A DNA stretch of 60,232 bases from a virus (lineage: Duplodnaviria > Caudoviricetes), in IMG/VR virus record IMGVR_UViG_3300045921_000410, positions 1 to 60,232 of that record; one strand, 5' to 3'. The translations under genes were made by a program, and so were the position numbers. The first letter of the stretch is position 1; each line of letters begins with the position of its first letter. The notes beneath the pieces are model-generated. The model saw nothing but the letters and a program-made list of their open reading frames with translations. It did not search any database and was not told the origin of the DNA. Shown piece after piece: positions 8,799-35,703 of this stretch.

Positions 8799-10310
8799 TT
8801 ATACGTTTAACAGAGGTGAGGTAGATCGAACACCCACCGGAACATTTTCGATAAGTACGAAACGCAACGGTGCATAATACTGTGGAACACAGTATAGGTT
8901 CATGACTCCCCAACGATACATACCAATCTTTGCAAATTCTTGCGAAAATACTGGTGCAAGTCTTTTAAGCAAGAAAGTTCTTTCCGTACCAGTAGAAGTT
9001 AAATCCAAAATAAAATAACAGGTGGTGCCTGGAATTTTTTGGTTTACATCTCTAAAAGTAACCGGGGCTAATCCATTGGAAGCAACCGAACCAGTGTAAA
9101 GATATACGCCTGTTCCAGGTTGTGCTTCGGAAAACACTTCGAAACATGTCGCTGGATATGCAGAATTTGGATTTGGTGTAATAACAATATCCAAAGCACC
9201 ACCGGAAACTACTGTCTCTGCGTTACTTGCGGAAGTAGCTAAAGAAGTTCCAAATTGATTCTTAGCTTGTACTCTATATCGATAAGCACCCGCAACTCGA
9301 CCACCAGAACCAGAGGTAGACCATTTACTTCCCGCTACCGGAGATGAAATAGGAGTTACACTCGTTAGTACAGGTGTTAGCGGAGCACGAACTGAGGTAG
9401 CACCTTCAACTAATGTTTGTGGGTTAGAAGGATTAGGAACTCTTGATACAGTTTTTGCTTCATACTCGGAACCAATGTAAATATCACTCACTAGTTCAAG
9501 AGTACCAAAAGCTGTATGAATATCTTTTACTTTTGTTCCAATAGAGATACTACCATCGGCACCAATTTGTCCTTGGGAAATTCTTTGAGTAGTATTCTGT
9601 CCATTATTTTTCATAATGTTATTGATTGTATTTAATCCAGCTGGGGAAGTGAACAATTTAGCGTTTGGATTTCCAAAGTTGTCCATAATCAACTGACCAG
9701 CGTTATCAAAAACATCTTGAGTAGGAATAGCTCCTCGCATATCAATAACATGAGCGGATGAACCATTTGTTCTAATCGCATATTCAAACCCGTCAATTTC
9801 AGTTGGAATCAAAAGAGAATTCCCGCTGTATAAAGATCGGTTTGCTTGTCGGATCAATCTTTGAATAGAACTTTGCTTTGCCCATGTTTCGATAGGTGTT
9901 ATACTATTGACCATTCCGGCTACATCGGAAAACTTCCACTGTTGCCGTAAAAATTTCATTACGCCGAATTTTCTTTGAGCATTTGGATCAGACTCTTCCG
10001 GAGTTTCCATTTGTCCTACCCAACCACCTTGTTGTCCATATCCGGTTTGGACTGAGTATTCTTCTAGCGTACTTGTTGCACTACCTTTTGGAACATTTTT
10101 CCAAAGAGAAGCGTGAGATTCCTGAGCTGTCAATAGAACAAGACTATCTTCTAAAGACTGCGGTTGTAAAGCTGTCGCACTGTTATAGGTGGAAATATCT
10201 GTCGATTGTCCCGCCGTAACTTCCAAGGCTTTAAGAAGTTGTTGAACTTCTTTATCTGTACTTATCCCAAAACCATTATATAGGTCTGGATTGAACTGAG
10301 AAATATCCAT
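8799..10310 (-). CDS. Major capsid protein, SPO1/Twort-like
   Basis: ALQPQSLEDSL..LT...LWKNVPK..ATSTLEEY; FN3-like insertion (YRYRVQAKNQFGTS); LLKA at residues 25-28 as probable maturation site. Confidence 0.92.
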   Translation of the reverse strand: MDISQFNPDLYNGFGISTDKEVQQLLKALEVTAGQSTDISTYNSATALQPQSLEDSLVLLTAQESHASLWKNVPKGSATSTLEEYSVQTGYGQQGGWVGQMETPEESDPNAQRKFGVMKFLRQQWKFSDVAGMVNSITPIETWAKQSSIQRLIRQANRSLYSGNSLLIPTEIDGFEYAIRTNGSSAHVIDMRGAIPTQDVFDNAGQLIMDNFGNPNAKLFTSPAGLNTINNIMKNNGQNTTQRISQGQIGADGSISIGTKVKDIHTAFGTLELVSDIYIGSEYEAKTVSRVPNPSNPQTLVEGATSVRAPLTPVLTSVTPISSPVAGSKWSTSGSGGRVAGAYRYRVQAKNQFGTSLATSASNAETVVSGGALDIVITPNPNSAYPATCFEVFSEAQPGTGVYLYTGSVASNGLAPVTFRDVNQKIPGTTCYFILDLTSTGTERTFLLKRLAPVFSQEFAKIGMYRWGVMNLYCVPQYYAPLRFVLIENVPVGVRSTSPLLNV

Positions 10311-10315
10311 TTCGT

Positions 10316-11017
10316 TTAACCCTCCTTACTTGCAATCGCAACGATTTGCGAAAGTGCATTTGGTTCAATTCTTTCCAAAAATCCATTGCAACTATCAAGC
10401 ATACCAACCAATGGATTCAAACTTGAATCTGCCAAAGCTGATTTGAAAAGACGCTCTTTAATCTTAGCGTAACCTAACTCTTTTGCTTTTACAATCGGGG
10501 AAGCATTATTTCCTATTGATTGATTTGCAAAGCTTGTTACTGATTTTTGTAACAAAGGTTCATGGGAAATTTTATTTAACTTATCTGTTAGGTTAAGAAT
10601 TACCGCACAAGCTTTGTTTAAAATTTCTCTGTTAGATTTTAGCTCTACATAATTTTGAGCTATACCATCCAAAAGATTTTCTGTTACATGAACCATTTTG
10701 GAATTCATATCAATCGCTTTACCAAGAATTTCAGTACCGTCAATCATAATTGCATCAGCACCATTCATAGTATCTGGATCAATAGAATCAAAACTTGATT
10801 GCAAAGACTTTCTTAAATCTTTCGCCTCATCAAAGTTTTTTAAACAGTCCTTCATAAAAGATTGATTTTCTTTCATGAATCGCTTCATGTACTTTTTCAT
10901 ATTCTCTGCGTCATAACCATCACCGTCATCATCGTTCGATTCTGACTTTCTAAGAGTTTCGTTTAACAGAGACCTTAACTGTTCTGTGGGGTCTTGATTA
11001 TTTTGTTCTGGTTCCAT
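10316..11017 (-). CDS. Capsid scaffolding protein
   Basis: Between protease and capsid genes; helical and acidic; four L-x-K-S motifs (LRKS twice, LQKS, LFKS). Confidence 0.7.
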   Translation of the reverse strand: MEPEQNNQDPTEQLRSLLNETLRKSESNDDDGDGYDAENMKKYMKRFMKENQSFMKDCLKNFDEAKDLRKSLQSSFDSIDPDTMNGADAIMIDGTEILGKAIDMNSKMVHVTENLLDGIAQNYVELKSNREILNKACAVILNLTDKLNKISHEPLLQKSVTSFANQSIGNNASPIVKAKELGYAKIKERLFKSALADSSLNPLVGMLDSCNGFLERIEPNALSQIVAIASKEG

Positions 11018-11077
11018 TTTTTTATTACTCCTTATTAATTTTTCCAGATTTACAAGTAGGTTAAAAAATAAACTTTT

Positions 11078-11926
11078 TCATAAATTTTCCCCCACTATTA
11101 ATTTAATAAAATTATATGTTTTGTCTGCTATATCTTTGGAAAGTCCTTTTGAAATATAAAAATCAATTAAGGCTTGTTTACCGACTGGGATACTACCATT
11201 TTGTAATCCATTGATATAATCTATTGCAATGTCCATCGCTTTTTCTAAACTTTGCTTTGCTAAAGCAATCGCCGGAGTTTGCCCGGCTTCTAAAGATTTT
11301 GCCAATAAACTAGAATTATTAAAACTTTCTAAATTGTTAAAAGAAACTATATCTTCTAGTACAGATTGATTTTTTTCTTGATATATAATTGATTTAGCAA
11401 GTGTCACCGCACTGCCATCAGACATTACATACGGTCTTCCAGCGATAGCTATATGATCCCATTTAATTTTTAATATCTTACGAACTATTTTTTCAAGAAT
11501 TTCATTGAAAGTTTTAATCGTCTCTAATATTGATCCACCGACTGAGGCACCTAATACAGGTTGGTCTGCTTTTAAATGAGGCATGATTGCTTCTTTTACT
11601 ATTTTATGATCTTTTGTTAAGTTTGCATAAACTTTGGGAAGTTTTTGATTGTTCTCCGTGTACCATTCAAAATCCACGGGCTTTCCTAAAATTGCGAAAG
11701 CTCTTTGTTCTGTGGTTGGGGCTGTCCTAGATTCGTGCTGCCAATCAACAATTCCTTCTTTGAGAAAAAAATCTATTACATCTGGGGTAAAAGCTAAAGG
11801 ATCAATTTGATCGTCCACTTTATCTACGTTAAATCTATTTGCAATAATAGATACTGGAAGAATACTATCCGTTTCTATGAAATGTTTTGATTTTTGTAGC
11901 GTCCATGATCCAATTTCTATTCGCAA
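11078..11926 (-). CDS. Prohead protease
   Basis: GIVDWQH and LGASVGG motifs; synteny; TTG start with GAGGT RBS. Confidence 0.8.
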   Translation of the reverse strand: MRIEIGSWTLQKSKHFIETDSILPVSIIANRFNVDKVDDQIDPLAFTPDVIDFFLKEGIVDWQHESRTAPTTEQRAFAILGKPVDFEWYTENNQKLPKVYANLTKDHKIVKEAIMPHLKADQPVLGASVGGSILETIKTFNEILEKIVRKILKIKWDHIAIAGRPYVMSDGSAVTLAKSIIYQEKNQSVLEDIVSFNNLESFNNSSLLAKSLEAGQTPAIALAKQSLEKAMDIAIDYINGLQNGSIPVGKQALIDFYISKGLSKDIADKTYNFIKLIVGENL

Positions 11927-11939
11927 ATTTTACCTCTAC

Positions 11940-12019
11940 CGGGAAATAAAAAAACCCGACAACCTCCATTTCCTTTTTTTGCTCAAAAGGGTTTATAGAA
12001 GTTGTCGGGTCTCTTCCCG
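11940..12019 (-). promoter_or_regulatory. Long RNA hairpin with U-tract in the leader of the head operon (terminator/attenuator)
   Basis: ACCCGACAACUUCUAU pairs with AUGGAGGUUGUCGGGU using G-U pairs; outer CGGGAA/UUCCCG; U-rich tract follows. Confidence 0.7.
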
Positions 12020-12071
12020 TCAATTTAGAATGTCTTGTTTTACTATATGATTAATATTTAAAAAAAAGCAA

Positions 12072-12347
12072 CTAAATATTTAATTTACGATCGAATTTTT
12101 TGTATATTAGTTTTCCATCTTGTACTTCAATAGGAATCGTTGTTAAATTCTTACACTGTCCGCATCTTAGAATTAAATCGATTTCCCCGGATTCATTTAT
12201 ATTTAATAAACTGACTGAGGTTTGCATAAGAAAAGTTTTATTATTTCGAATTCCAAGCCCATTTTGACAATTTTGACACCTAAGCTTACCTTTCTGATTA
12301 AAAATATGAACCTTGCCGTTTTCAATACCATAATTTAAATTTTCCAT
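12072..12347 (-). CDS. Zinc-ribbon protein, Mu Com-like
   Basis: LRCQNC...LILRCGQCKNL double CxxC motif. Confidence 0.55.
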   Translation of the reverse strand: MENLNYGIENGKVHIFNQKGKLRCQNCQNGLGIRNNKTFLMQTSVSLLNINESGEIDLILRCGQCKNLTTIPIEVQDGKLIYKKFDRKLNI

Positions 12348-12371
12348 TTCCCTGTTATTTTCCCTGTTATT

Positions 12372-14318
12372 TTACTTCTTTTTAATTACATTGGTAGTCT
12401 GGTCTATTCCATGTCCAATTTCTGTTCCTACTGATTCAGTTTTTTCACCGGACAAACCATCTGCAATAATATTTGCTAAACCTTTAATAGCTGAGACAAA
12501 CGCCTCTTTAGAAGTTTTAGGAAGCCTGGAAAGCGGATTTTTTGTCTTTGGTTCTGTTTCTTGCTTTACTCTCTCCCACTTTCTATCTGACACTTTTTTC
12601 CATTTACTTCCATCTCTCCTAGTTGATATTGTTCCAATATCTGAACCTTTACCAGATTTTTCTAAATTCTCATATACGTATTTTCTATTCTGTAACCCAT
12701 GAGATTTTCTTAAAGAATTAAACTCTTCATTATTCGCCAAATAATAAGATTTAAACTGGTCAATATTCATGTATTCAATAGAGTGAAAAAAAGAATCATC
12801 GTCATAATGTCGATAAAACGTTTCCATAACTTCATCATCATTATTAAAGCCAAAAAATACTTTTTCTTCATCTATCTCACCAGTAAACGGGTCTTTTATG
12901 GTTACGACATAAACGTGGGGAGAGTTTAGATAAGAGCCTAAAAAACAATCGACTTCTTCTCCGTCCATTCCAACTGTATTTTGTACATACCCATACGGGT
13001 AGTCCATAAAAGTAAACCAATCCTCTCCGCTTCTAATAGAGCCGGTTGGATTTTCAATAGTTATAATAAATCCATTAAATTCAATTTCTTCCGTTACTGG
13101 TCTAGGTTCAGGCACTTTTACAAAAGCGTACGTTCCATCTGGTCTGGAAATATATTTAAAAGATTTTGCTAAAGCTGATGGTCTATTTATTTGCCGATAA
13201 GCTTGCTTAAAAGTCTTAGCCGGATTTTCTGTTTTTACTCCCATAGAATCCGCTACTTTATTAACATATACATTCAATCTTTTTAATACTTGCTTAATAG
13301 TGTTATCGTTAGTTCCTAAATTTTTAGCAATTTCTTTAGATTTCTTACCGGCTAAGTATTGATTGAAAATCGTAACGCCTCTTTCTTTAAACGAACTCAC
13401 TTTATTTGATTTAATTTCTTTTATGACTGCCGAATAAATGTCATCTACTTTTTGTTTTGCAACTATTGAAAGTTGTTTTACTTCTTGTTCACTGGCTTTT
13501 TCTTCCGCTTGAATTGTTTCTACGAAACTATCAATTGCATCTCCTATAGATTTATTTTTATTTGTTCGACTCATGTTTCTACCAACATTTGAAAATATTG
13601 TCGCAACATAAGAAGGGAATTTTTCTAAGGCTACATTCTGGAAACTACCTCGATCTTGTAGCTCCATAAGCTTTATAGTAGCTTCTTGAATCAAGTCATC
13701 AATCTCATAACCATCGACATTTGATTTTACAAAAGCGTATGCAAGCGTCCCAGGTTCAGTATAAGAACCGGATACTTTTACTTTCGCTATTTTTTTTATT
13801 CCACTGGGAGTAACAATGGTTTTTTCTTTAACTTGTGCTCCTTGCCAAAATCTTTCTTGAATATAATTAACTAATGTATTAACGTCCTTTCCTTTAATTT
13901 TAGAAAATTCATCCTCAGTGGGTTTTAGTTTATCGTACCATTTGTTGGATTTAGAAATTCTCTTCTCTTTACCTCCTATATCTCCGTCTGGTCGTACCCA
14001 TACGACTCTATTAAACGTTTTTCCGTTTTTACTTTTTACTTGAACTATTTTTTGAACAAGCCCCGGTCTTGCTTTTTGCAAAGTTTCTTTACTACTTTCA
14101 ATCAAAGCATTTTGTAGTTTTTCAAACCTTTTGAATGTTTGCCCAAGCTTAGAATCTTGATTTAATGGTTCATCATCAACTATATTAAATTTGTCGTATA
14201 TGAATGACCCGTCTTCTTTTAACAATCGGTACTTTTCATTTTCATAATCTACAATCACACACTTATCTTCATTGACAGTTCTTACTACTTTTCCATACAT
14301 TTGAGAAATTACGTTCAT
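12372..14318 (-). CDS. Polyvalent-type protein: ECF-like sigma70 domain plus InPase domain
   Basis: Region-2-like EIDDLIQEATIKL...FPSYVATIFSNVGRN; region-4 HTH GKKSKEIAKNLGTNDNTIKQVLKR; InPase-type ITIENPTGSIRSG...YPYGYV..TVGMDGEEVDCFLG...DEEKVFFGF. Confidence 0.75.
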   Translation of the reverse strand: MNVISQMYGKVVRTVNEDKCVIVDYENEKYRLLKEDGSFIYDKFNIVDDEPLNQDSKLGQTFKRFEKLQNALIESSKETLQKARPGLVQKIVQVKSKNGKTFNRVVWVRPDGDIGGKEKRISKSNKWYDKLKPTEDEFSKIKGKDVNTLVNYIQERFWQGAQVKEKTIVTPSGIKKIAKVKVSGSYTEPGTLAYAFVKSNVDGYEIDDLIQEATIKLMELQDRGSFQNVALEKFPSYVATIFSNVGRNMSRTNKNKSIGDAIDSFVETIQAEEKASEQEVKQLSIVAKQKVDDIYSAVIKEIKSNKVSSFKERGVTIFNQYLAGKKSKEIAKNLGTNDNTIKQVLKRLNVYVNKVADSMGVKTENPAKTFKQAYRQINRPSALAKSFKYISRPDGTYAFVKVPEPRPVTEEIEFNGFIITIENPTGSIRSGEDWFTFMDYPYGYVQNTVGMDGEEVDCFLGSYLNSPHVYVVTIKDPFTGEIDEEKVFFGFNNDDEVMETFYRHYDDDSFFHSIEYMNIDQFKSYYLANNEEFNSLRKSHGLQNRKYVYENLEKSGKGSDIGTISTRRDGSKWKKVSDRKWERVKQETEPKTKNPLSRLPKTSKEAFVSAIKGLANIIADGLSGEKTESVGTEIGHGIDQTTNVIKKK

Positions 14319-14319
14319 T

Positions 14320-17300
14320 TTACTTTACCTCTACCTTTCTTTCAAAATTAAAATCTAAATTAAATTTTATTCTACCTCTGGGAGTAACAACTTCCGTAAA
14401 AAAGTCTTCTTGCGTTTTACTAACTTTTTGGAAAGACGTGCCTTCGTACGCTTTACCTTTGTCCTCTCCTGTCGTAAAAATCATCTGGTTATGTCCTTGA
14501 TTTACAAAAACGACCGAATCTTGGTTGTATTTTGCTCCTAAATCTATCACTTCGGACTTTTCTGCTTCTGGCAAAAAGAAAATAAAACTTTCTTCTTTTA
14601 AACCTTCATAAGTTCCTATTGCTCGAACAAACTGAAACCCCATCTTAATTAAATCTTTTTTTAAATCTTCATCTCTCTTAGAAATTTGTTCATCGGTAAG
14701 TTCCATATCTTCTTTAATTTTAGGATTTCTTCCCGCCGATACAATTCCAATTTGTCCATGTTTAAGTAAAGTTTCTATTTCACTTATCTTTAAATTTATT
14801 TCTTTTCCCTCTCCTGGTTTTCGCATAATTTTAAATCGTAAATCTGCGGAAATTTGTATTCCGTCTTTTTTAAATTCATCTTTAGCTTCTTTGATTTTGG
14901 AAATATAATCTTTAGCTATTTTTATAGCTTTTTCTTTTTCCGCCTGGGAAAGGTTACCGCTTGAAATTACTTTGTCAATTTCTATTAACTTTTCAATCTC
15001 ATTTGGTTTTGCATAAGAAGGAATCTCTCCAAAATGTTTTGATTCTCTAAATTTTATAGATGGTGGTGCCTCTCCAATTTTAAACCAACGATTTACTCGA
15101 TTTCCTCTTTTATCTCGTACAGGTCTTAACTCCATTCCCGGACGAACTGCCTTCATTAATTCATCTTGGAAGTCTTGATCAAAATACATTAAAAAATCTA
15201 TTAAGAAATCCACGCCCTCATTAATGACTGATTTTTGTAAATTTGCTACTCTTGCTTTTTCTTCTCCGGTAACTTGCCCCATGAATCTAATTTTTGACAA
15301 ACTTTCCTCATTAAACTTACCGGATTCAACTGCATCTTGTCCTTTTCTACTTAATGCTTTTTTAATATAGCTAAATGCCATTTTTGGCTGTGTTCTAATT
15401 AAATCTGACATTAAATAATCTTTACCACTAATAGTTATATTTGCATCTTTCCAGTACACGTTAACATTTGGAATATCACCTGGGGTAAATGGAACATGAC
15501 TCAAAAATTCTTTAAACGATTTAAACTTTACACCTTGTCCTTTTTTCTTTTCTATAACATTAGTTGGTTTTTGTAAAATATTGTAGTCCATAACTTGTCT
15601 ATTATTCGCTACAACTTTTGGCAACGGTAAATCCGAATTACTATTTATAATTTCTTTGGCAACCGATTCCGAATCTACTGATTCTACAAGTGCCAAGGTG
15701 TCCGCATTAATTCGAGAATAATCACCCTCGACTGTGGCACCTAGAGTAACTAATTTTGTAGCCATTACCGATTTATTCCAGTTATCTATTGGATGATCTA
15801 CATACATTAATTCGACAAAAGCGGGTGACTTAGTGTTCTTTCTATTTATTCTTCCTAGAACTTGTACAAAATTATTTGCGGAAAAAGGTAAGGAAGTTAA
15901 AAACATTCTTCTCGGCTTATCACCTTGTACGTCGTCAAGACTGATCCCAGTACCTCCGGACTGAGGAGTTGTAATAAAAACCTGTGCTTTACCAGATTGA
16001 AACTGGAAAACGCCTGTTTTATCTTTCTTACTTCCAAAATAATCAACTACCTCAATCCCTTGTGCTTTTAATCCATCTGAAATAGATTGTAAGACTGCAT
16101 CGTGGCTGTATGATTGACTTCCTTCTTTTCCAAAAGTAGTATTGACTGTTTCGTTAGTTCTTGCTCCAACGATTACAACTTGTTCGCCGTTTTTAATTGA
16201 TTCAATAGTTCTTTTTATTGTTTCTTTTGCTTTAAACGATTCTAGCATTCCTCTTAACTTCATTAATCCCGTGGCTTTGGCTATTCCACGAAACATTGGA
16301 TTTTCTATAGAATCAATATAATTCTCATAATCGTTGTAAGCTTGATTAAAAGTATCAATATACTCCTCTGGAATAGAAATGTCATTTATATTTGTTTTTA
16401 AATTTTTTAATTCAACTTCTCTTTTTACTGCCAATCCTCGATCTGTTATTGTATTAAAAAATGCTTCTATTTTTTCAGCTACGTTTTTGTAATTATATCC
16501 GGATTTAGGCTCATAAGATATTTTTATAGTTCCATCGGATTTTTTATATTCCCTACTTGTCATTCCAATCATATCCATTAGAGAACTAAAGTTTATTTGT
16601 AGGGCACTCGCTATGTAGTGTAAATGCTCCGGCTTATCGACCGGAGTAGCTGAGAACATTGCTACATTTTTGGCACCCAAAATAAACTCCAATCCTTGTT
16701 TGGATTTCTCACTATCAGAATTTTTTAAATTATGCGATTCATCAAATATTACTAAATCGTATTCTTTGCCAATATTTTTTAACATAGAATAAGTAGTTAT
16801 ATTAATTTCACCCGATTTACCCTCACCTGATTTAATTCGATTTAAACTCGAACCCATTATTTTAGCATCAGTATTAAAAGCGTTTGTAATAATAGATTCT
16901 GATTCAGTAACAATTAAAATTTTTGCATTCGGATTTTCTTTCAAATACGTTTCTGCTAAACCAATCTCTTGTCTTGTTTTCCCGGTGCCTGTACCATCGA
17001 AATTTAAAATAGTTTTGTTATCTTTTTTAAAATTGTCAATAGCAAGATTTACAAAATCTCTTTGTGCTTTGTTTATATGTTTAAGAAGGCTGTCGGGAAC
17101 GTAACTATTTTCTGGGATGACGGTGTTTGTCCATCGCCCGAGTTTATATCCTTCTTGTGAGTACTCTTGGTCGCTTGTAGCATATCGTACATTAGGTTGG
17201 ATTCGCTGATTATTTGATCCCGCACTTCCTCCGGCATGCTCATCAGTTCTTTCAATTCGTTCTCGAACTGAGGGATTTCTTTCACCATTTGTTCTAAGCT

Positions 17301-17442
17301 CATTTCCTTCAACGGGTTCTGTGTTTCCATTTACATTACTCTCCTTTTCTTCTTTAATTGATACGTTTACTGTCTTGTAGTGTCCTCGAACTTTACCAGT
17401 TGCGGGAATCCAAACTCTTTTTTTAATTAAATTACTATTCAT
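14320..17442 (-). CDS. Polyvalent-type protein: SF2 (strawberry-notch-like) helicase plus C-terminal DUF3293-like domain
   Basis: DGTGTGKT, DESH, SAT, QSGGTGISL, QVLGRINR; C-terminal IVSAGRNP...GTY...EESF...LGAKYNQDSVVF. Confidence 0.75.
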   Translation of the reverse strand: MNSNLIKKRVWIPATGKVRGHYKTVNVSIKEEKESNVNGNTEPVEGNELRTNGERNPSVRERIERTDEHAGGSAGSNNQRIQPNVRYATSDQEYSQEGYKLGRWTNTVIPENSYVPDSLLKHINKAQRDFVNLAIDNFKKDNKTILNFDGTGTGKTRQEIGLAETYLKENPNAKILIVTESESIITNAFNTDAKIMGSSLNRIKSGEGKSGEINITTYSMLKNIGKEYDLVIFDESHNLKNSDSEKSKQGLEFILGAKNVAMFSATPVDKPEHLHYIASALQINFSSLMDMIGMTSREYKKSDGTIKISYEPKSGYNYKNVAEKIEAFFNTITDRGLAVKREVELKNLKTNINDISIPEEYIDTFNQAYNDYENYIDSIENPMFRGIAKATGLMKLRGMLESFKAKETIKRTIESIKNGEQVVIVGARTNETVNTTFGKEGSQSYSHDAVLQSISDGLKAQGIEVVDYFGSKKDKTGVFQFQSGKAQVFITTPQSGGTGISLDDVQGDKPRRMFLTSLPFSANNFVQVLGRINRKNTKSPAFVELMYVDHPIDNWNKSVMATKLVTLGATVEGDYSRINADTLALVESVDSESVAKEIINSNSDLPLPKVVANNRQVMDYNILQKPTNVIEKKKGQGVKFKSFKEFLSHVPFTPGDIPNVNVYWKDANITISGKDYLMSDLIRTQPKMAFSYIKKALSRKGQDAVESGKFNEESLSKIRFMGQVTGEEKARVANLQKSVINEGVDFLIDFLMYFDQDFQDELMKAVRPGMELRPVRDKRGNRVNRWFKIGEAPPSIKFRESKHFGEIPSYAKPNEIEKLIEIDKVISSGNLSQAEKEKAIKIAKDYISKIKEAKDEFKKDGIQISADLRFKIMRKPGEGKEINLKISEIETLLKHGQIGIVSAGRNPKIKEDMELTDEQISKRDEDLKKDLIKMGFQFVRAIGTYEGLKEESFIFFLPEAEKSEVIDLGAKYNQDSVVFVNQGHNQMIFTTGEDKGKAYEGTSFQKVSKTQEDFFTEVVTPRGRIKFNLDFNFERKVEVK
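17073..17330 (-). CDS. Candidate overprinted small helical protein nested in the helicase linker
   Basis: AAGGAG 10 nt before the ATG; amphipathic-looking sequence; locally higher GC. Confidence 0.4.
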   Translation of the reverse strand: METQNPLKEMSLEQMVKEIPQFENELKELMSMPEEVRDQIISESNLMYDMLQATKSTHKKDINSGDGQTPSSQKIVTFPTAFLNI

Positions 17443-17452
17443 TTATTTTTAC

Positions 17453-18301
17453 CTACTTATCCGGATATAAACTGTAAGCTGTATTTTCCACGTTTGACCA
17501 AACTATAAAATCAATAACGCTTCTATCTTTTGGAATTTTATTTTTTTCAATGTATTCCATCACTTGTTTAGTTTCAGATTCATCAAACTTATCACCAAAC
17601 AATGAAAATTTTGGTTCATTAGGTTCTCCAAAAATTCCTTCATCAATCATTTCTCGTAAGTTATCTTGGAAAGCTTTTTTATTTTTCTTTAAGTGTTTTA
17701 GATTGTCATTTGTATAAGTGATTCCTTGGTAACCGTTTCCAGCTCCGTTATTAAAAATATCACTCCAAGATTCATTTAAATCTTTTTTAAAATAATCGTA
17801 TATAACTTTTTGAGAATCATTTAGATTACTTAACTGCCTTCCATCGTTTTTAGTTTCTATTTTATTTTCTATTGCAGATTTAATTTTTTGTTTATCGCTA
17901 TCCGACAAATTCTTAAACTTTTCTTCGTTCATAATCTTATCGGAAATTTCTTGTAATTTATGAACTGATTCTACTTCGTTTATTTTGTTCAATATTCCAG
18001 ATATATTTTCTTTATTACTTTTAATCCATACAGTCTTTTGATAATTTCCATTTTTTCCTTGAACTGTTATTTTTTTAGGAACTAATCCTTCTCTAGCTTT
18101 CATAAGATTTTCAATGCTATTGTACAACTGGGAAGCTTTCCGATAGTTTACTAAATTCCAAAAACTATTAGCCTTATTTGTTTGTAACTTAACTAACTCA
18201 GATTTAATCAAATTCATGTTTTCTTCTTCGTTATCTTTCGGAAAGCAAGCATCCACGAAATTTGAAATCCACTTTTTTTGTAAACTTAAAACTTTATCCA
18301 T
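17453..18301 (-). CDS. Putative internal head protein
   Basis: LIKS and LMKA motifs; LMKA is followed by REGLVPKKITVQGKNGNYQKTVWIK, a motif shared with the 12372-14318 protein. Confidence 0.55.
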   Translation of the reverse strand: MDKVLSLQKKWISNFVDACFPKDNEEENMNLIKSELVKLQTNKANSFWNLVNYRKASQLYNSIENLMKAREGLVPKKITVQGKNGNYQKTVWIKSNKENISGILNKINEVESVHKLQEISDKIMNEEKFKNLSDSDKQKIKSAIENKIETKNDGRQLSNLNDSQKVIYDYFKKDLNESWSDIFNNGAGNGYQGITYTNDNLKHLKKNKKAFQDNLREMIDEGIFGEPNEPKFSLFGDKFDESETKQVMEYIEKNKIPKDRSVIDFIVWSNVENTAYSLYPDK

Positions 18302-18344
18302 GTTTCTGTCCTTTTATTTTTTTTAATAGATTTGGATTTTCGAA

Positions 18345-18369
18345 TTGACTCATAGTAAATTCCTATAAT
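18345..18369 (+). promoter_or_regulatory. Possible sigma70-type promoter
   Basis: TTGACT and perfect TATAAT, but only 13 nt apart. Confidence 0.3.
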
Positions 18370-18705
18370 ATGTACTTTATGGAAACCGTTGAAACAATTC
18401 AATCTAAAATTAATATTCTGAAAAAGCAAATAGAAGAAATTTTCTTAATTTCAAAGGTGGAAAAAATATACCAATCAAAACAAAACCATACTTATATTAC
18501 ACTAAATTTATCACTTGATAACCTAAGCATAGATATTTTGGAAAAAAATATTGGGCAATTAAAACAAATAATGATTGAATTTAATAAACTTAAAACCCAA
18601 CAAAATATTTTATTTAACGCCGAACAAAAACAGATATTAGAGACAAACGCCGTCGGTTTGGGTACTGACAAACTCCCAGGAATTAATTCTTCAATCCCAT
18701 TTTGA
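18370..18705 (+). CDS. Hypothetical protein, the only plausible plus-strand gene
   Basis: Fills a gap with no long minus-strand ORF; TATAAT directly upstream. Confidence 0.55.
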   Translation: MYFMETVETIQSKINILKKQIEEIFLISKVEKIYQSKQNHTYITLNLSLDNLSIDILEKNIGQLKQIMIEFNKLKTQQNILFNAEQKQILETNAVGLGTDKLPGINSSIPF

Positions 18706-19230
18706 ATTTAAGAAATACTTCATATCCCACAAAGAAACTCTACCTTTTTTGATCCAAGGAATCATAAAATATTTTTTTAATTCTTGTAAGGTTATTTCCT
18801 TAGTATCCGAATCCCAGAGTTTCTTCATCTCTTCCGGCTTTATCACAACTATAAATTTTTCAGAACCGTTTCTATTCTCAAATTCTACTCCAATCAGAAA
18901 ACACGCTCTCAGACCTTGCCTCTTTGCTTTTAATAAACCTTCGATTTGATTTGGTCTTATGTTATGTTTAGGTTTTTCTGATTTACGTATATCTTTAATC
19001 TGGAAGGCACCAGAACTTTTATGAAATTTTAATTCAATTCCCATTCTCGTTTCTTGTTTCAATCCTTGACTTTTTGGAGTAAAAAGAAAACAATCAAAAG
19101 GCTTTTCAACTATAAAGCGACTAATTCCAGCTAAACCCATTCCATCTGGTATTTTGTAGAACCAGAACTCATTAAACTGGATTGCTAAGCTTTTGGCAAT
19201 TGACAATCTTAAATCGACTTCATTTTTCAC
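18691..19230 (-). CDS. PD-(D/E)xK nuclease, Holliday junction resolvase/RecU-like
   Basis: FYKIPD...KPFDCF...GIELK...IRPNQIEGL. Confidence 0.7.
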   Translation of the reverse strand: MKNEVDLRLSIAKSLAIQFNEFWFYKIPDGMGLAGISRFIVEKPFDCFLFTPKSQGLKQETRMGIELKFHKSSGAFQIKDIRKSEKPKHNIRPNQIEGLLKAKRQGLRACFLIGVEFENRNGSEKFIVVIKPEEMKKLWDSDTKEITLQELKKYFMIPWIKKGRVSLWDMKYFLNSKWD

Positions 19231-20660
19231 TTAGCTAACCAATTCCAAAGCGATTTTGCTTTCTCTAAGACTGTAGGCTTTGATTCTTTTATCTCCACAA
19301 CTGGGGAATTCTCTGGTAACTTTCGCCAACTACTGTAAACTATCTTAGCACCGTTTTCAGTTTTTTCTAAACGCATCGGCTCCGGTAACTTCTTACCCTT
19401 CGCCTTACATAAAGTTAAAATACAATTTGCATAAGGAACGGTTTTTTTGTACTCTGTGGTAAATTCGTAAGTCTTTTCTAATTTCAATTCGTTTGGATTT
19501 GATTTCATAAATTCCCAGTCAATCTCCCCACTACGATTATCTGTGATCAATATCATATCTTTTAGTTTCCCATCCAAAACTTGAAAGTACGATCGAGTCA
19601 CTGATGACTTTAATAATCCAACCGGAATATCGCTTGCGATATATTTTACTTTTTGTTCAATTTCATTTGTCTTATTATTAGATATAAAAGCTTTAAAAAG
19701 TTTTTTGTTTTTTAAATTCACTAATATAGGTTCTTTCATTATATGCTTAATATATGATTTGGTCAAAGATTCTAAACTACGAAAATTTTGACTATCAATA
19801 ATACTCTTCTCTCTCCGCATAAAAATATTTTCTAATAGATTATATCCATCTAAAAAAGTATTTTTAAGAATTTCAAAATAACCTTCATTGAAAATTAATC
19901 CCAGCATATACCAAGCATAAGTAGTACAAAAAAGCTCTTCTCCATTTGACAATTCATAAGGGTTCTTAATTATTTTTGGCACTGTTTCTTCTTTATCTAT
20001 ATTAATATTTTTTAAAATAGATTTCCAACTATCCTTCTCAGTATCCGTTAACACCGTATTCCAATAAACATGACCAATCTCATGTAACACGGCTTCTAAA
20101 ATATTGTCACTCTGTAGCACAGTTATATTTACTCCAATCGAGTGAGCTACCTGATGATCTTTTCTTTCTTCTTTACTGGGTTTTTTTGCGGTTAAAATTA
20201 CAGGGCTAGAAGGTAGATATTTTTTGGGTAGTATATCTAATTTCTGTAATACTTCTATTGATTTAAATAGTTTTAAATTATTTTCTGAATCCCAGTTCGA
20301 TTGGATGGGATCATAAATTACAAAACTATTATTAAAATTTAAAGCACGATAAGGCTCACCGGTAAGATATACTGCCTCGCCATTCCATTTATTTTCAAAA
20401 ATGCGATCTGGAACCAGTGCCCAAAGTCCTGTGGAATCTAAAATCACTAGTCCGGACTCATCCTCACCTACCACTGCATAAACTTTATTATTTAGTTTAA
20501 CAAATACAGGTTTTCCATCAATTACATAATCTTTAATCCGATTAGTATTAGAACTCACAACTTTAACACAACCGTGATTTCTACTTTCAAGCTCTGAACA
20601 AATTGTTTCTAATTCTTGAAAATCTTTATTTAATACTTCTCTAATTTCTGAATGATTCAT
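19227..20660 (-). CDS. Putative head-associated protein with zincin metallopeptidase motif
   Basis: VLHEIGHV plus downstream EELFC; multiple L-x-K-[S/A] motifs. Confidence 0.6.
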   Translation of the reverse strand: MNHSEIREVLNKDFQELETICSELESRNHGCVKVVSSNTNRIKDYVIDGKPVFVKLNNKVYAVVGEDESGLVILDSTGLWALVPDRIFENKWNGEAVYLTGEPYRALNFNNSFVIYDPIQSNWDSENNLKLFKSIEVLQKLDILPKKYLPSSPVILTAKKPSKEERKDHQVAHSIGVNITVLQSDNILEAVLHEIGHVYWNTVLTDTEKDSWKSILKNINIDKEETVPKIIKNPYELSNGEELFCTTYAWYMLGLIFNEGYFEILKNTFLDGYNLLENIFMRREKSIIDSQNFRSLESLTKSYIKHIMKEPILVNLKNKKLFKAFISNNKTNEIEQKVKYIASDIPVGLLKSSVTRSYFQVLDGKLKDMILITDNRSGEIDWEFMKSNPNELKLEKTYEFTTEYKKTVPYANCILTLCKAKGKKLPEPMRLEKTENGAKIVYSSWRKLPENSPVVEIKESKPTVLEKAKSLWNWLAK

Positions 20661-22435: not shown

Positions 22436-22465
22436 ATAAAAAAAGGGAACCGGCATGGTTCCCTT
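22436..22465 (-). terminator. Intrinsic terminator
   Basis: AAGGGAACC/GGTTCCCTT stem with minus-strand U-tract; near copy of the 25504-25534 terminator. Confidence 0.8.
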
Positions 22466-22704: not shown

Positions 22705-22731
22705 AAGTAAACTAAAACAAAAAAGTGTCGC
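22705..22731 (-). promoter_or_regulatory. Island promoter repeat copy 1 (GCGACA-N16-TACTT)
   Basis: Motif shared by 7 sites, each directly upstream of an RBS. Confidence 0.75.
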
Positions 22732-23150: not shown

Positions 23151-23203
23151 CGTTTTTACCTCTTTCATTTATAAAAGTAAACTAAAAAGAAAAAGTGTCG
23201 CTT
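23148..23203 (-). promoter_or_regulatory. Island promoter/RBS repeat copy 2
   Basis: AAGCGACACTTTTTCTTTTTAGTTTACTTTTATAAATGAAAGAGGTAAAAACGATG; identical to copy 6 over 60 bp. Confidence 0.8.
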
Positions 23204-25050: not shown

Positions 25051-25076
25051 AAGTAAAACAAATTAAAAAAGTGTCG
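25051..25076 (-). promoter_or_regulatory. Island promoter repeat copy 3
   Basis: CGACA-N16-TACTT followed by AGGAG RBS. Confidence 0.75.
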
Positions 25077-25449: not shown

Positions 25450-25499
25450 CGTTTTTACCTCTTTCATTTATAAAAGTAAACTAAAAAAAAGTGTCGCTT
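25447..25499 (-). promoter_or_regulatory. Island promoter/RBS repeat copy 4 (spacer 3 nt short)
   Basis: GCGACA-N13-TACTT with a T8 spacer tract. Confidence 0.7.
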
Positions 25500-25503
25500 A
25501 GAA

Positions 25504-25534
25504 TAAAAAAAAAGGGAACCAAATCGGTTCCCTT
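25504..25534 (-). terminator. Intrinsic terminator
   Basis: AAGGGAACC/GGTTCCCTT plus U-tract. Confidence 0.8.
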
Positions 25535-26656: not shown

Positions 26657-26709
26657 CGTTTTTACCTCTTTCATTAATGTAAGTAAAACAAATTAAAAAA
26701 GTGTCGCTT
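26654..26709 (-). promoter_or_regulatory. Island promoter/RBS repeat copy 5
   Basis: GCGACA-N16-TACTT...GAAAGAGGTAAAAACGATG. Confidence 0.8.
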
Positions 26710-27114: not shown

Positions 27115-27167
27115 CGTTTTTACCTCTTTCATTTATAAAAGTAAACTAAAAAGAAAAAGTGTCGCTT
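27112..27167 (-). promoter_or_regulatory. Island promoter/RBS repeat copy 6
   Basis: Identical to copy 2. Confidence 0.8.
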
Positions 27168-29131: not shown

Positions 29132-29151
29132 TCTTTTATACCTCATTTTTT

Positions 29152-29789: not shown

Positions 29790-29841
29790 CGTTATTTACC
29801 TCTTTCATTAATGTAAGTAAATTAAAACAAAAAAGTGTCGC
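29787..29841 (-). promoter_or_regulatory. Island promoter/RBS repeat copy 7
   Basis: GCGACA-N16-TACTT...GAAAGAGGTAAATAACGATG. Confidence 0.8.
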
Positions 29842-35428: not shown

Positions 35429-35703
35429 AATAGAGACAAACTACTTTGGTCTGTATAAACGTCAAACAATTTTTTAATCTTATTTTTATCTGTTTCTGTA
35501 AATTTAGAAACTAAATCTTTACTTTGGTTGTAAATAATTATTTGGCATGTTTCCATTTCTCCATCTTTACTTACTGGAAAAATTAACTCAGCTAAACTGT
35601 TAGGCTTACTAATATCGAAATATTTGGCACTTAATTGCACAACGTAACAACCTATCGCTTTTACCGATTTCTTCCTATTTTTTATGAATTTAATTTTGCT
35701 CAT
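35425..35703 (-). CDS. Hypothetical protein
   Basis: ATGA-coupled to the TerL gene. Confidence 0.6.
   Translation of the reverse strand: MSKIKFIKNRKKSVKAIGCYVVQLSAKYFDISKPNSLAELIFPVSKDGEMETCQIIIYNQSKDLVSKFTETDKNKIKKLFDVYTDQSSLSLL

What the first reader, a model, noticed from the sequence alone, without database searches (positions are those of the whole stretch)
12372..14318. Possible virion-packaged, protease-released ECF-type sigma factor driving the island promoters
Seen: a sigma70 region-2-like segment (EIDDLIQEATIKL...FPSYVATIFSNVGRN) and a region-4 HTH lie between LQKA (aa 80-83) and LAKS (aa 383-386). An InPase-type domain follows and is bounded by LRKS/LEKS. The gene sits in the late head operon between MuF and the prohead protease. 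Established: Twort/A511-type capsid proteins mature by cleavage at Lys-Ser near the N terminus, and InPase domains mark injected polyvalent proteins. Inference: the head protease excises an approximately 300-aa sigma factor that is ejected with the DNA and redirects host RNA polymerase to the seven CGACAC...TACTT promoters at 22.7-29.8 kb. No other sigma-like gene is visible in the window. Virion RNA polymerases are known (N4, phiKZ, crAss); I am not aware of a described virion-delivered sigma factor.
Basis: partly seen in the sequence, partly recalled or inferred. Interest (0 to 1): 0.92.

Follow-up and report, generated by a model that had tools for sequence, protein, structure and literature searches.

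The report
Sigma factor module in phage head protein
An uncultured phage carries a genuine bacterial-type sigma factor module inside a multi-domain protein of its head-assembly gene cluster, so it may deliver its own transcription initiation factor inside the virus particle, which has not been described and is not yet shown.

Summary
The sequence features are real. ORF 12372-14318 (minus strand, 648 aa) has an ECF-type sigma-70 module (TIGR02937 above its curated cut-off) followed by an InPase domain (E 9e-30). L-x-K-[S/A] motifs are enriched about 7-fold in the ten head-module ORFs (27 seen, 3.9 expected) and not in the other 68. Seven CGACAC-N15-TACTT elements occur against 0.26 expected.

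One correction: the upstream gene is not MuF. It is an SNF2-type helicase with a SAM-lyase-like end.

New here: the sigma module belongs to a family embedded in large phage proteins. Some reach 1576-1953 aa and carry LPD1 and InPase domains. Most have a conserved hydrophobic-x-K-[A/S/G] junction and a basic beta-hairpin in front of the module. A co-fold with the beta' clamp helices of a stand-in host passes its controls, but this is a textbook pair.

No call shows packaging, cleavage, ejection or promoter specificity, and no close relative's contig could be read.

My reading: a head-packaged, protease-processed polyvalent-type protein whose sigma fragment recruits host RNA polymerase, possibly to the island promoters. 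The domain calls are near certain; the full chain has a probability of about 0.35-0.4. My literature searches found no described virion-delivered sigma factor.

The parts
12372..14318 (-). Whole ORF, 648 aa: N-terminal leader, basic beta-hairpin, ECF-type sigma module, InPase domain, basic C-terminal tail
14073..14318 (-). aa 1-82, N-terminal leader ending in LQK|A; candidate propeptide or targeting segment (inferred)
   Evidence: the LQKA site is invariant in the 3 close sequences
13992..14069 (-). aa 84-109, basic beta-hairpin (RPGLVQK...VVWVRP) that opens the module. The same motif follows L-M-K|A in ORF 17453-18301 and in ORF 14320-17442
   Evidence: (strands E5-12 and E18-25, pLDDT 78-87)
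13554..13943 (-). aa 126-255, sigma2-like domain. It holds an N-terminal helix pair, a lineage-specific beta-hairpin insert (about aa 160-200) and the DDLIQE...KFPSYVATIFSNVGRN helices
13275..13745 (-). Stretch matched by TIGR02937 sigma70-ECF (aa 192-348, profile positions 13-157 of 165)
13269..13421 (-). aa 300-350, sigma4-like helix-turn-helix (GKKSKEIAKNLGTNDNTIKQVLKRL)
13161..13172 (-). LAKS, aa 383-386; candidate cleavage site between the sigma module and InPase. L383, K385 and S386 are invariant in the 3 close sequences
12744..13091 (-). aa 410-525, InPase (polyvalent-protein type inorganic pyrophosphatase) domain
   Evidence: E 9e-30; 9b41_L 'gp19 Portal', E 7e-17
12654..12713 (-). LRKS (aa 536-539) and LEKS (aa 552-555), further candidate sites. 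They are less conserved: LRKS is SRKE in P0002 and LEKS is absent in both homologues
12375..12656 (-). aa 555-648, basic C-terminal tail with the conserved GKG..IGTI.TR.DG..WKKV...KW..V motif; similar motifs follow the sigma module in distant relatives
11078..11926 (-). Probable prohead serine protease, 282 aa. H64, S128 and H158 are invariant in 5 sequences, and it has four L-x-K-[S/A] motifs
   Evidence: weak; the model has pLDDT 55
10316..11017 (-). ORF in the scaffold position, 233 aa, with six L-x-K-[S/A] motifs
   Evidence: no family hit; scaffold role inferred from position
8799..10310 (-). Major capsid protein with LLK|A at aa 25-28
   Evidence: (phrog_752, E 3.4e-70)
14320..17442 (-). 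Upstream neighbour, 1040 aa: ResIII/SNF2-type helicase core plus SAM-lyase-like C-terminus. LQK|S is at aa 735 and LMK|A plus hairpin at aa 762. It is not MuF
17453..18301 (-). 282-aa ORF with LMK|A followed by the same basic hairpin (aa 66-95)
22705..22730 (-). Promoter-like element 7 of 7 (CGACAC-N15-TACTT)
23175..23200 (-). Promoter-like element 6, followed by the shared leader, SD and ATG
25051..25076 (-). Promoter-like element 5, directly after a terminator-like hairpin
25474..25496 (-). Promoter-like element 4, the one with a 12-nt spacer; it follows terminator 25534-25512
26681..26706 (-). Promoter-like element 3
27139..27164 (-). Promoter-like element 2
29815..29840 (-). Promoter-like element 1 (most upstream in the direction of transcription)

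Best explanation
ORF 12372-14318 encodes a polyvalent-type cargo protein of the phage head.

Proposed chain:
1. It is made late, together with the capsid genes.
2. It is incorporated into the prohead.
3. The prohead protease cuts it after Lys in L-x-K|[S/A] motifs. This releases a fragment of about 303 aa (aa 83/84-385: basic beta-hairpin plus a complete ECF-type sigma2-sigma4 module) and an InPase fragment of about 150 aa.
4. These fragments leave the capsid with the DNA.
5. In the new cell the sigma fragment binds host core RNA polymerase through its region-2 helix and directs it to phage promoters before any phage protein has been made. The seven near-identical CGACAC-N15-TACTT elements in front of the small-gene island at 22.7-29.8 kb are the best candidates.
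6. The InPase part may remove pyrophosphate locally. That is the suggestion of the polyvalent-protein paper, and I did not test it.

Shown here: the domain identities, the motif enrichment, the repeated promoter-like elements, and the recurrence of this sigma module in large multi-domain phage proteins.

Inferred: packaging, cleavage, ejection, sigma activity and promoter specificity.

My odds for the steps: packaged about 0.65; cut at these motifs about 0.6; acts as an initiation factor with host core about 0.5; reads these seven elements about 0.3.
For: (1) Sigma identity.
- TIGR02937 is over its cut-off.
- A 22-sequence family profile hits solved ECF sigmas across both domains. SigE 9m9d_F matches at E 7.9e-6 over profile positions 187-354; SigW, SigH/AlgU and SigL also match.
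- The AF2 model of aa 84-400 has pLDDT 79.9 and an all-helical sigma2/sigma4 layout.
- 35 of the 48 listed Foldseek rows are sigma/anti-sigma or RNAP-sigma entries, though none reaches E <= 0.001.
- Of 9 distant family members tested, 9 hit TIGR02937, at E 2e-18 to 4e-6; 1 of the 9 is over the cut-off.

(2) Core-binding surface.
- D208, Q211 and E212 are nearly invariant in the family.
- The co-fold with RPOC_BACSU residues 200-360 scores 0.67, with best control 0.01. That mark was reached by 58 of 80 solved complexes and 2 of 110 mismatched pairs. The runs agree in at least 43% of contacts, and the partner's pLDDT is at least 67.
- The interface is beta' 260-287 with target aa 146-158 and 204-218.

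(3) Head or virion association.
- InPase matches at E 9e-30. The same domain sits at the C-terminus of a solved phage portal chain (9b41_L).
- It lies under 'minor head protein' or 'portal' annotations in the listed rows of 458 phage records.
- The paper calls InPase phage-specific and likely packaged.
- The gene lies in one co-directional block with the capsid, scaffold-position and putative protease genes.

(4) Processing.
- L-x-K-[S/A] occurs 27 times in the 10 ORFs at 8799-22021, against 3.9 expected; 0 of 2000 shuffles reach 27. In the other 68 ORFs the counts are 17 against 14.6.
- Control patterns are not enriched.
- 23 of the 27 sites lie outside the target ORF, including capsid aa 25-28, six in the scaffold-position ORF and four in the putative protease.
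- The junction recurs in front of the hairpin in 15 of 18 relatives, against 1.68 expected.
- P0003 carries an extra module bounded by the same junction.

(5) Promoters.
- There are 7 elements against 0.26 expected, found only in the island.
- Each lies about 20 nt upstream of a shared SD and ATG, and several lie just after terminators.
- Sigma-70-type consensus sites are not enriched there: 74 seen against 81.8 in shuffles.

(6) The module recurs in proteins of 1576 and 1953 aa together with LPD1.
Against: - No call shows that the protein is in virions, is cut, or is ejected.
- The protease assignment is weak. The model has pLDDT 55.4. The profile finds nothing in the PDB. T4 gp21 appears only at E 0.3.
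- The L-x-K-[S/A] junction could be a structural feature of these modules rather than a cleavage site. The pattern used was widened after I had seen the data, and 2 of the 18 rows are close relatives.
- The co-fold is a textbook sigma/beta' pair and uses a stand-in host, so the pass may reflect likeness to solved complexes.
- Foldseek gave no significant hit.
- One of the seven elements has a 12-nt instead of a 15-nt spacer, which fits poorly with a strict -35/-10 reading.
- CGACAC/TACTT is not a known ECF consensus.
- The record is about 66% complete, so another sigma or an RNA polymerase may be encoded in the missing third.
- A sigma factor made from a late operon could equally serve late or next-round transcription inside the same cell.
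- Only 5 of 19 distant relatives scanned carry InPase.
- No MuF is present.
Confidence: 0.38

Rival explanations
1. The protein is a conventional, newly synthesised phage sigma factor for middle or late genes that happens to be fused to an InPase domain and encoded beside the head genes. It works in the cell where it is made and is not packaged.
For: - All known phage sigma factors act this way (my own knowledge: SPO1 gp28, T4 gp55, phiEco32 gp36).
- In a Twort-like phage a sigma factor seen in virion mass spectrometry was judged by its authors to be likely carry-over (PMC5618024, passages read).
- The polyvalent-protein paper suggests InPase could aid transcription by clearing pyrophosphate.
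Against: - The module is embedded in proteins of up to 1953 aa with LPD1 and InPase, which is not the architecture of a free sigma.
- The gene sits inside the block that is enriched in L-x-K-[S/A] motifs.
- InPase is tied to portal and minor head proteins.
- A sigma that must be made from a late operon cannot start that operon.
Confidence: 0.2
2. The protein is packaged and ejected, but the sigma-like module does not initiate at promoters. It binds host core polymerase as a decoy for host shut-off, or it tethers the entering DNA to polymerase or to the ejection machinery.
For: - The residues that are best conserved across the family are those of the core-binding helix, D208/Q211/E212.
- The sigma4 recognition helix varies widely among relatives.
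- Basic hairpins flank the module.
- The co-fold supports only the beta' contact.
Against: - Both sigma2 and sigma4, with the helix-turn-helix, are retained in the family members I scanned with NCBIfam: 9 of 9 match TIGR02937 over both halves. A pure decoy would not need that.
- Variation in the recognition helix is also what diversifying promoter specificity would give.
- The record holds a set of seven non-host-like repeated promoter elements.
Confidence: 0.2
3. The seven island elements have nothing to do with this protein. They are read by the host primary sigma with an unusual but tolerated sequence, or by a factor or polymerase encoded in the missing third of the genome. Alternatively they are recombination cassettes that spread promoter, leader and start codon together.
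For: - The repeat extends through the leader, SD and ATG over about 55-75 nt, as expected for a duplicated cassette.
- One copy has a different spacer.
- The record is 66% complete.
- A reading of GCGACA-N17-TACTTT as a weak sigma-70-type promoter is possible (my inspection).
Against: - The two blocks CGACAC and TTTACTT are invariant in 7 of 7 copies while the spacer varies, which is typical of a bipartite recognition site.
- Consensus sigma-70-type sites are not enriched in the region.
- No other sigma-like or single-subunit polymerase match is in the record. The polymerase search had no positive control.
Confidence: 0.35
4. The L-x-K-[S/A] enrichment reflects a shared structural motif of helical head-interior proteins, for example helix ends before a linker. 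It is not a protease site, and the protein stays whole.
For: - Many motifs lie in predicted helical, Lys- and Leu-rich proteins.
- In the model LAKS sits at the end of a helix with pLDDT 71-85.
- The junction is conserved in relatives from presumably very different phages, which is unusual for a protease specificity.
Against: - Per-protein shuffles keep composition and still give 3.9 against 27.
- L-x-K followed by other residues is not enriched: 8.1 against 7.9 per 1000.
- One site sits at aa 25-28 of the capsid protein, the usual place of a propeptide cut.
- Two of the four sites in the putative protease keep the hydrophobic-x-K-[S/A] form in all 5 homologues, at aa 10-13 and 176-179.
Confidence: 0.15

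Closest known systems
ECF (group 4) sigma-70 family factors
   Same: Two-domain sigma2 plus sigma4 layout. TIGR02937 is over its cut-off. The profile hits solved SigE, SigW, SigH and SigL. A conserved acidic/Gln-Glu helix is predicted on the beta' clamp helices.
   Different: It is not a free protein of about 200 aa. It is the middle of a 648-aa protein (up to 1953 aa in relatives), preceded by a basic hairpin and followed by InPase. Sigma2 carries a beta-hairpin insert. No anti-sigma neighbour was seen. It is encoded in a phage head module. No specific ECF subgroup model comes near its cut-off.
Polyvalent proteins of phages (Iyer, Burroughs, Anand, de Souza, Aravind 2017, PMC5512222)
   Same: Multi-domain cargo with InPase and, in relatives, LPD1. 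The location is a head-gene neighbourhood. The paper predicts packaging, processing and a role in 'jump-starting transcription' (abstract and passages).
   Different: The word 'sigma' occurs 0 times in the paper's main text, so a sigma module is not among the domains it discusses there. Its supplementary domain tables could not be opened. The paper favours zincin-type peptidases for processing, whereas here the motif pattern points to the prohead protease. In this phage the cargo is spread over several adjacent ORFs.
Virion RNA polymerases (N4 vRNAP, phiKZ-type virion polymerase)
   Same: The logic is the same: a transcription component carried in the capsid and ejected to start early transcription (abstracts listed; PMC5512222 passages).
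   Different: Those are catalytic polymerases that make infection independent of host polymerase. This protein would supply only the specificity subunit and would still depend on host core enzyme.
T4 Alt and the prohead-protease-processed head cargo of T4 and giant phages
   Same: Packaged cargo that redirects host polymerase to phage early promoters (Alt, as described in PMC5512222). A prohead protease cuts many head and ejected proteins at a short motif (SPN3US gp245, 14 sites in 9 proteins; abstract of PMC10052503).
   Different: Alt modifies polymerase enzymatically and is not a sigma. The motif here is L-x-K|[S/A]; the Glu-type motifs of those phages are from my recollection.
Phage-encoded sigma factors made after infection (SPO1 gp28, T4 gp55, Kayvirus Sig)
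   Same: A phage-specified sigma redirects host core enzyme to phage-specific promoters.
   Different: Those are small free proteins expressed from early or middle genes. None is known to be a processed head component. The Kayvirus Sig found by virion mass spectrometry was dismissed by its authors as probable carry-over (PMC5618024).

Membership tests
Sigma-70 family, ECF-like (TIGR02937) | Score over the curated family cut-off across region 2 and region 4 | tested here: met
   45.9 bits against a cut-off of 42.9, aa 192-348, profile positions 13-157 of 165; 48.8 bits in the six-frame search
Sigma-70 family, ECF-like (TIGR02937) | Sigma2 and sigma4 helical folds | tested here: inconclusive
   The AF2 model (pLDDT 79.9) has the expected helices. 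Sigma entries dominate the Foldseek list, but no row reaches E <= 0.001 and TM-scores are low for the multi-domain model. The VIA-align libraries were not available
Sigma-70 family, ECF-like (TIGR02937) | Binding to core RNA polymerase through region 2 and the beta' clamp helices | tested here: inconclusive
   The co-fold scores 0.67 against a best control of 0.01 and has the canonical interface. It is a textbook pair with a stand-in host and is a prediction only
Sigma-70 family, ECF-like (TIGR02937) | Promoter-specific transcription initiation | not testable with these tools
   Needs in vitro transcription or a reporter assay
Specific ECF subgroups or phage sigma families | Score over the cut-off of a subgroup model | tested here: not met
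   The best subgroup hits are far below their cut-offs, e.g. TIGR02985 at 28.8 against 126.4 bits. phrog_1740 'sigma factor' matches only at E 5.4e-5
InPase domain of polyvalent proteins (PF18823) | Score over the Pfam gathering threshold | tested here: met
   103.7 bits against 26.8, aa 410-525
InPase domain of polyvalent proteins (PF18823) | Acidic metal-binding residues of type I pyrophosphatases | tested here: inconclusive
   The alignment to a solved pyrophosphatase (1ygz_A) lines up DGEEVD with DGDPVD. I did not check the full active site
Polyvalent proteins (Iyer et al. 2017) | Several unrelated effector domains in one polypeptide, with marker domains such as InPase or LPDs | tested here: met
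   Sigma module plus InPase here. Relatives carry a CLCA_X-like region, LPD1, the sigma module and, in P0004, InPase
Polyvalent proteins (Iyer et al. 2017) | Packaged in the virion and transferred with the DNA | not testable with these tools
   Only context is available: head-module position and InPase on portal or minor head proteins
MuF-associated head cargo | Phage_Mu_F domain in the protein or next to it | tested here: not met
   No PF04233 match at E <= 1 in the record. The neighbours have other domains
Prohead serine protease (for ORF 11078-11926) | Family score or fold match, and catalytic Ser/His | tested here: inconclusive
   There is no Pfam, PHROG or NCBIfam family match. The ESM Atlas neighbours include Peptidase_S78 clusters. 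H64, S128 and H158 are invariant in 5 sequences. 12 of 50 BFVD rows are named prohead or maturation protease, from a model with pLDDT 55. The PDB search is not significant

The most novel reading that the evidence does not exclude
A whole family of uncultured tailed phages packages an ECF-type sigma factor in the capsid as a protease-released module of polyvalent cargo proteins. The sigma enters the cell with the DNA and reprogrammes host core RNA polymerase onto phage-specific immediate-early promoters before any phage gene is expressed. This would be a third route to transcriptional independence, beside virion RNA polymerases and packaged polymerase-modifying enzymes. Each lineage would have its own sigma4 recognition helix and its own promoter set.
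Probability: 0.3. Interest if true: 0.88.

Novelty: new variant of a known kind. Interest (0 to 1): 0.72.

Why it matters
Phages are known to bring transcription tools in the capsid in two forms. One is a complete RNA polymerase (N4, phiKZ-type, crAss-like). The other is an enzyme that modifies the host polymerase (T4 Alt). A packaged specificity subunit would be a cheaper third solution.

It would explain how a phage can have immediate-early promoters that host holoenzyme does not read. It would also add a DNA-targeting, polymerase-recruiting domain to the catalogue of polyvalent-protein cargo.

The sigma module recurs in at least 19 divergent protein clusters, none of them in the phage genomes of the GenBank collection searched. 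The phenomenon, if real, therefore lies in uncultured phages and is broader than this one contig.

The proposal can be tested with recombinant parts alone: protease plus substrate, and sigma fragment plus core enzyme plus a 60-nt promoter.

Tried and rejected
- Close relatives with genomic context were not found. IMG/VR gave none with alignment A1 or A3. The one JGI metagenome locus, L002, has MuF plus InPase and no sigma. GTDB genomes gave none. So co-occurrence of domain and promoter motif could not be tested.
- tblastn against the 50,697 phage records found no match for the sigma module alone or for relative P0013. P0011 matched through InPase only, apart from one Luteibacter phage row that reaches into aa 342-547, which I did not follow.
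- The Burkholderia phage WTB 'minor head protein-like' hit, which covers target aa 277-529, is a portal-family protein without a sigma match.
- Foldseek of the sigma model against the PDB gave no row at E <= 0.001.
- For the protease candidate, the profile found nothing in the PDB and the Foldseek PDB search was not significant.
- A Bacteroidota-type -7/-33 promoter reading of the island elements was considered and dropped, because the genes carry strong Shine-Dalgarno sequences. This rests on my own knowledge of those promoters.
- No tRNA genes were found that could hint at a host.
- No RNA holder was listed for the island.
- PF00940 (single-subunit RNA polymerase) gave no match, but the control rang nowhere, so that says nothing.
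One search listed no paper that gives it, and the Felix O1 paper was not relevant.
- Supplementary files of PMC5512222, which hold the domain tables, were not opened. They may list a domain that corresponds to this module.
- 'Not in print' rests on searches only.


Full report
WHAT THE RECORD IS. The window is a whole IMG/VR virus record of 60,232 bases. It is linear and about 66% complete by CheckV. It has about 32% G+C, no tRNA genes, and almost all ORFs on the minus strand. Reading in the direction of transcription, from 60 kb down to 1, it holds the following.
- Replication genes: a DnaD-like loader, helicases, primase, a UvsX-like recombinase and DNA polymerase.
- A DNA methyltransferase, the large terminase (35700-37583) and the portal (33106-34761).
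- An island of small genes at about 22.4-33 kb.
- A block of large ORFs of mostly unknown function at 12.4-22.0 kb.
- A putative protease, a scaffold-position ORF and the major capsid protein (8799-10310; phrog_752, E 3.4e-70).
- Tail genes, including a sheath.

The terminase is only about 27% identical to those of SPO1-type Bacillus phages. This is a distant, uncultured myovirus of unknown host.

THE OBSERVATION.
- Pfam gives InPase at aa 410-525 (E 9e-30). It gives only sub-threshold hits to Sigma70_r2 (aa 201-248, E 0.028) and Sigma70_r4_2 (aa 321-347, E 0.0054).
- The NCBIfam superfamily model TIGR02937 (sigma70-ECF) models both regions together. It matches aa 192-348 over profile positions 13-157 of 165, at E 4.4e-12 and 45.9 bits against a cut-off of 42.9.
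- The six-frame search of the record finds this place and no other. In that search's controls the family rang in 14 of 14 genomes at E <= 1 but over the cut-off in only 10, so only the over-cut-off status carries weight.
- The four L-x-K-[S/A] motifs lie at aa 80, 383, 536 and 552.
- The seven CGACAC...TACTT elements are there, against 0.26 expected.

Two corrections.
- There is no MuF in the record. The upstream ORF 14320-17442 is a ResIII/SNF2-type helicase (E 1.6e-12) with a C-terminal S-adenosylmethionine-lyase-like domain (E 2e-6, 28.2 bits against a cut-off of 28).
- A 91-aa zinc-ribbon-like ORF separates the target from the putative protease.

THE SIGMA MODULE IS REAL AND BELONGS TO A FAMILY. 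The word-indexed search of 5.8 billion proteins found only two close homologues, at 68% and 66% identity, and both have InPase. The exhaustive HMMER search of 1.84 billion representatives with aa 84-400 found 34 proteins at E <= 0.001, 9 of them at E <= 1e-10. I aligned 21 of them with the query. I left out the rows that matched only the helix-turn-helix in several stretches.

What the alignment shows:
- a basic beta-hairpin;
- a helix pair with a Q-x-G-D...A-L-A-x-Y pattern, which is like the first helix of ECF sigmas (that comparison is recalled, not tested);
- an optional hairpin insert;
- the D-x-x-Q-E helix;
- an almost invariant N-V-x-x-x-K-F-P-S-Y-V-A stretch;
- a long variable linker;
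- a sigma4-type helix-turn-helix.

D208, Q211, E212, Q221, G224 and R347 are at least 90% conserved, and I330 is invariant.

Tests on the family:
- The family profile hits solved ECF sigma factors across both domains (SigE at E 7.9e-6; SigW, SigH/AlgU, SigL).
- Nine of nine distant members scanned hit TIGR02937 (E 2.3e-18 to 4.3e-6), one of them over the cut-off.
- One hit, P0030 (197 aa), is an ordinary free sigma factor (Sigma70_r2, E 3.9e-17).
- AlphaFold2 on aa 84-400 with the 22-row alignment gives pLDDT 79.9. It shows a two-stranded hairpin, helices, an inserted hairpin, and then seven helices of high confidence in the sigma2 and sigma4 regions.

ARCHITECTURES. Among the 19 distant relatives scanned with Pfam, 5 carry InPase directly after the sigma module (P0004, P0005, P0009, P0011, P0017). 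Two are giant proteins: P0004 (1953 aa) has a CLCA_X-like region, LPD1, the sigma module and InPase, and P0010 (1576 aa) has a CLCA_X-like region, LPD1 and the sigma module. LPD1 and InPase are domains named in the polyvalent-protein paper. [quoted passage not shown] The InPase of the target also matches the C-terminal part of a solved 765-aa chain named 'gp19 Portal' (9b41_L, E 7e-17). In the listed rows of 458 phage records it lies under 'minor head protein' or 'portal protein' annotations. The word 'sigma' does not occur in the main text of that paper. Its supplements could not be opened.

THE JUNCTION MOTIF. L-x-K-[S/A] occurs 27 times in the 4,189 residues of the ten ORFs at 8799-22021. 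Each protein's own composition predicts 3.9 (Poisson P 1.6e-14), and 0 of 2000 per-protein shuffles reach 27. In the other 68 ORFs (14,553 residues) it occurs 17 times against 14.6 expected. The tail ORFs have none. L-x-K followed by any other residue is not enriched, at 8.1 against 7.9 per 1000. The sites are:
- one at aa 25-28 of the capsid protein;
- six in the 233-aa scaffold-position ORF;
- four in the putative protease;
- four in the target;
- two each in ORFs 14320-17442 and 17453-18301;
- six in ORF 19227-20660;
- one each in ORFs 18691-19230 and 20657-22021.

Three of them have the form L-x-K|A-(V)-R-[P/E]-G followed by the basic hairpin (target aa 80; ORF 17453 aa 66; ORF 14320 aa 762). 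Homologue P0003 carries an extra inserted module bounded on both sides by this same junction. In the target, LQKA and LAKS are conserved in both homologues, while LRKS and LEKS are not fully conserved. In the putative protease, the sites at aa 10-13 and 176-179 keep the form hydrophobic-x-K-[S/A] in all five sequences, down to 41% identity.

Across the distant relatives, a [LIVMF]-x-K-[A/S/G] motif lies within 14 residues upstream of the hairpin in 15 of the 18 rows that have enough upstream sequence. The expected number is 1.68, and 0 of 200,000 simulations reach 15. I widened that pattern after seeing the data, and two of the rows are close relatives, so one search is supporting evidence and not an independent test.

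This distribution is what a prohead-protease specificity looks like. Prohead proteases of T4 and of giant phages cut capsid, scaffold, protease and ejected proteins at one short motif (SPN3US: 14 sites in 9 proteins; abstract of PMC10052503). It remains an inference here.

THE PROTEASE. ORF 11078-11926 has no family hit. Four lines of evidence bear on it.
- Its ESM Atlas neighbours are viral clusters, some of which carry Peptidase_S78 (scores 0.94-0.97; leads only).
- Five homologues share invariant H64, S128 (in G-A-S-V-G-G) and H158. This order fits the His-Ser-His arrangement I recall for T4 gp21.
- The AF2 model is poor, at pLDDT 55.4. With it, 12 of 50 listed BFVD rows are named prohead or maturation proteases, and 2 rows reach E <= 0.001, both of them unnamed.
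- The PDB search is not significant; T4 gp21 comes at rank 6 with E 0.3.

I call the protease assignment probable.

CORE BINDING. A co-fold of target aa 117-385, with the family alignment, and residues 200-360 of B. subtilis beta' scored 0.67.
- The best of 3 controls was 0.01.
- That mark was reached by 58 of 80 solved complexes and 2 of 110 mismatched pairs.
- The runs agree in at least 43% of contacts, and the partner's pLDDT is at least 67.
- The contacts join beta' 260-287 to target aa 146-158 and 204-218, including Q211 and E212.

Sigma with beta' is a textbook pair that has been solved many times, and the host is a stand-in. The pass therefore shows that the module still looks like a core-binding sigma2. 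It does not show that the module binds.

THE ISLAND ELEMENTS. The seven elements share AAGCGACAC, a T-rich spacer, TTTACTT, a short A/T stretch, and in five of them the same GAAAGAGGTAAA(A/T)AACGATG leader.
- Six have 15 nt between CGACAC and TACTT, and one has 12.
- CGACACTTTTT occurs exactly only at these seven places.
- Several elements follow terminator-like hairpins directly. Terminator-like sites are enriched in 18-36 kb (18 against 7.0), whereas sigma-70-type consensus sites are not (74 against 81.8).
- The genes they precede include a DUF932 protein and a pentapeptide-repeat protein. These would suit early, counter-defence functions, which is an inference.
- Two invariant blocks at a fixed distance are what a sigma-type bipartite promoter looks like. 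An 'AC' followed by a T-run resembles ECF -35 elements as I recall them.

Nothing here ties the elements to this particular protein.

ASSESSMENT. The domain identifications are secure. The protein is best filed as a polyvalent-type head cargo protein with a sigma module. That combination is not mentioned in the polyvalent-protein paper's main text. It also did not appear in my five literature searches on virion-associated or packaged sigma factors. The nearest item is a Kayvirus sigma seen in virion mass spectrometry and dismissed by its authors as likely carry-over. Every functional step is still inference. The main alternatives are a non-packaged sigma, a packaged polymerase-binding module that does not initiate, and island promoters read by something else. 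All three remain open.

Noticed in passing
window 14320-17442 (-): A 1040-aa ORF combines a ResIII/SNF2-type helicase core (aa 122-586) with a C-terminal SAM-lyase-like domain (aa 914-1011, at the Pfam cut-off). It has LQK|S at aa 735 and LMK|A plus a basic hairpin at aa 762. It looks like another processed head cargo, possibly an anti-restriction function delivered with the DNA.
   Followed up: partly
window 19227-20660 (-): A 477-aa ORF has an H-E-I-G-H motif (zincin-like HExxH) and six L-x-K-[S/A] motifs but no family hit in Pfam, PHROGs or NCBIfam. The polyvalent-protein paper proposes zincin-type peptidases as processing enzymes, so this is an alternative protease candidate.
   Followed up: partly
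window 13992-14069, about 18017-18094 and about 15070-15150 (-): A basic beta-hairpin motif (R-P-G-L-V-x-K-K-x-T-V-x-G-K-x-G-...-V-W-V) recurs directly after L-x-K|A in three ORFs. It precedes the sigma module in nearly all distant relatives. Its function is unknown; it could be a DNA-binding or capsid-targeting element.
   Followed up: partly
window 12375-12656 (-): The C-terminal motif G-K-G-..-I-G-T-I-.-T-R-.-D-G-..-W-K-K-V-...-K-W-..-V is conserved in the close homologues. It resembles motifs that follow the sigma module in distant relatives after an L-L-L-K-A-type junction.
   Followed up: no
window 28451-29146 (-) and 24251-25024 (-): The island encodes a pentapeptide-repeat protein (E 8.4e-35), seen in the DNA as a 15-nt periodic repeat, and a DUF932 protein (E 2.2e-16). 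Both are candidates for counter-defence roles.
   Followed up: no
window 25474-25496 (-): One of the seven promoter-like elements has a 12-nt spacer instead of 15 nt, while keeping both conserved blocks and the shared leader.
   Followed up: no
window 22443-22465 and 25512-25534: Two near-identical terminator hairpins (AAGGGAACC...GGTTCCCTT) lie in the island. The promoter, leader and start-codon cassette is repeated as a unit of about 55-75 nt, which suggests spread by duplication or recombination.
   Followed up: no
window 18691-19230 (-): A RecU/Holliday-junction-resolvase-like ORF (weak: PHROG E 4.9e-6, Pfam RecU E 6e-4) sits inside the head-cargo block and carries one L-x-K-A motif.
   Followed up: no
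window 18370-18705 (+): This is the only sizeable plus-strand ORF (111 aa) lying in a gap between minus-strand genes. I did not check whether it is a real gene.
   Followed up: no
L002 8275-10792: A high-G+C metagenome phage locus has a MuF-like ORF, a small Cys-rich ORF and then a free InPase protein without a sigma module. This is the more usual MuF-InPase context.
   Followed up: no
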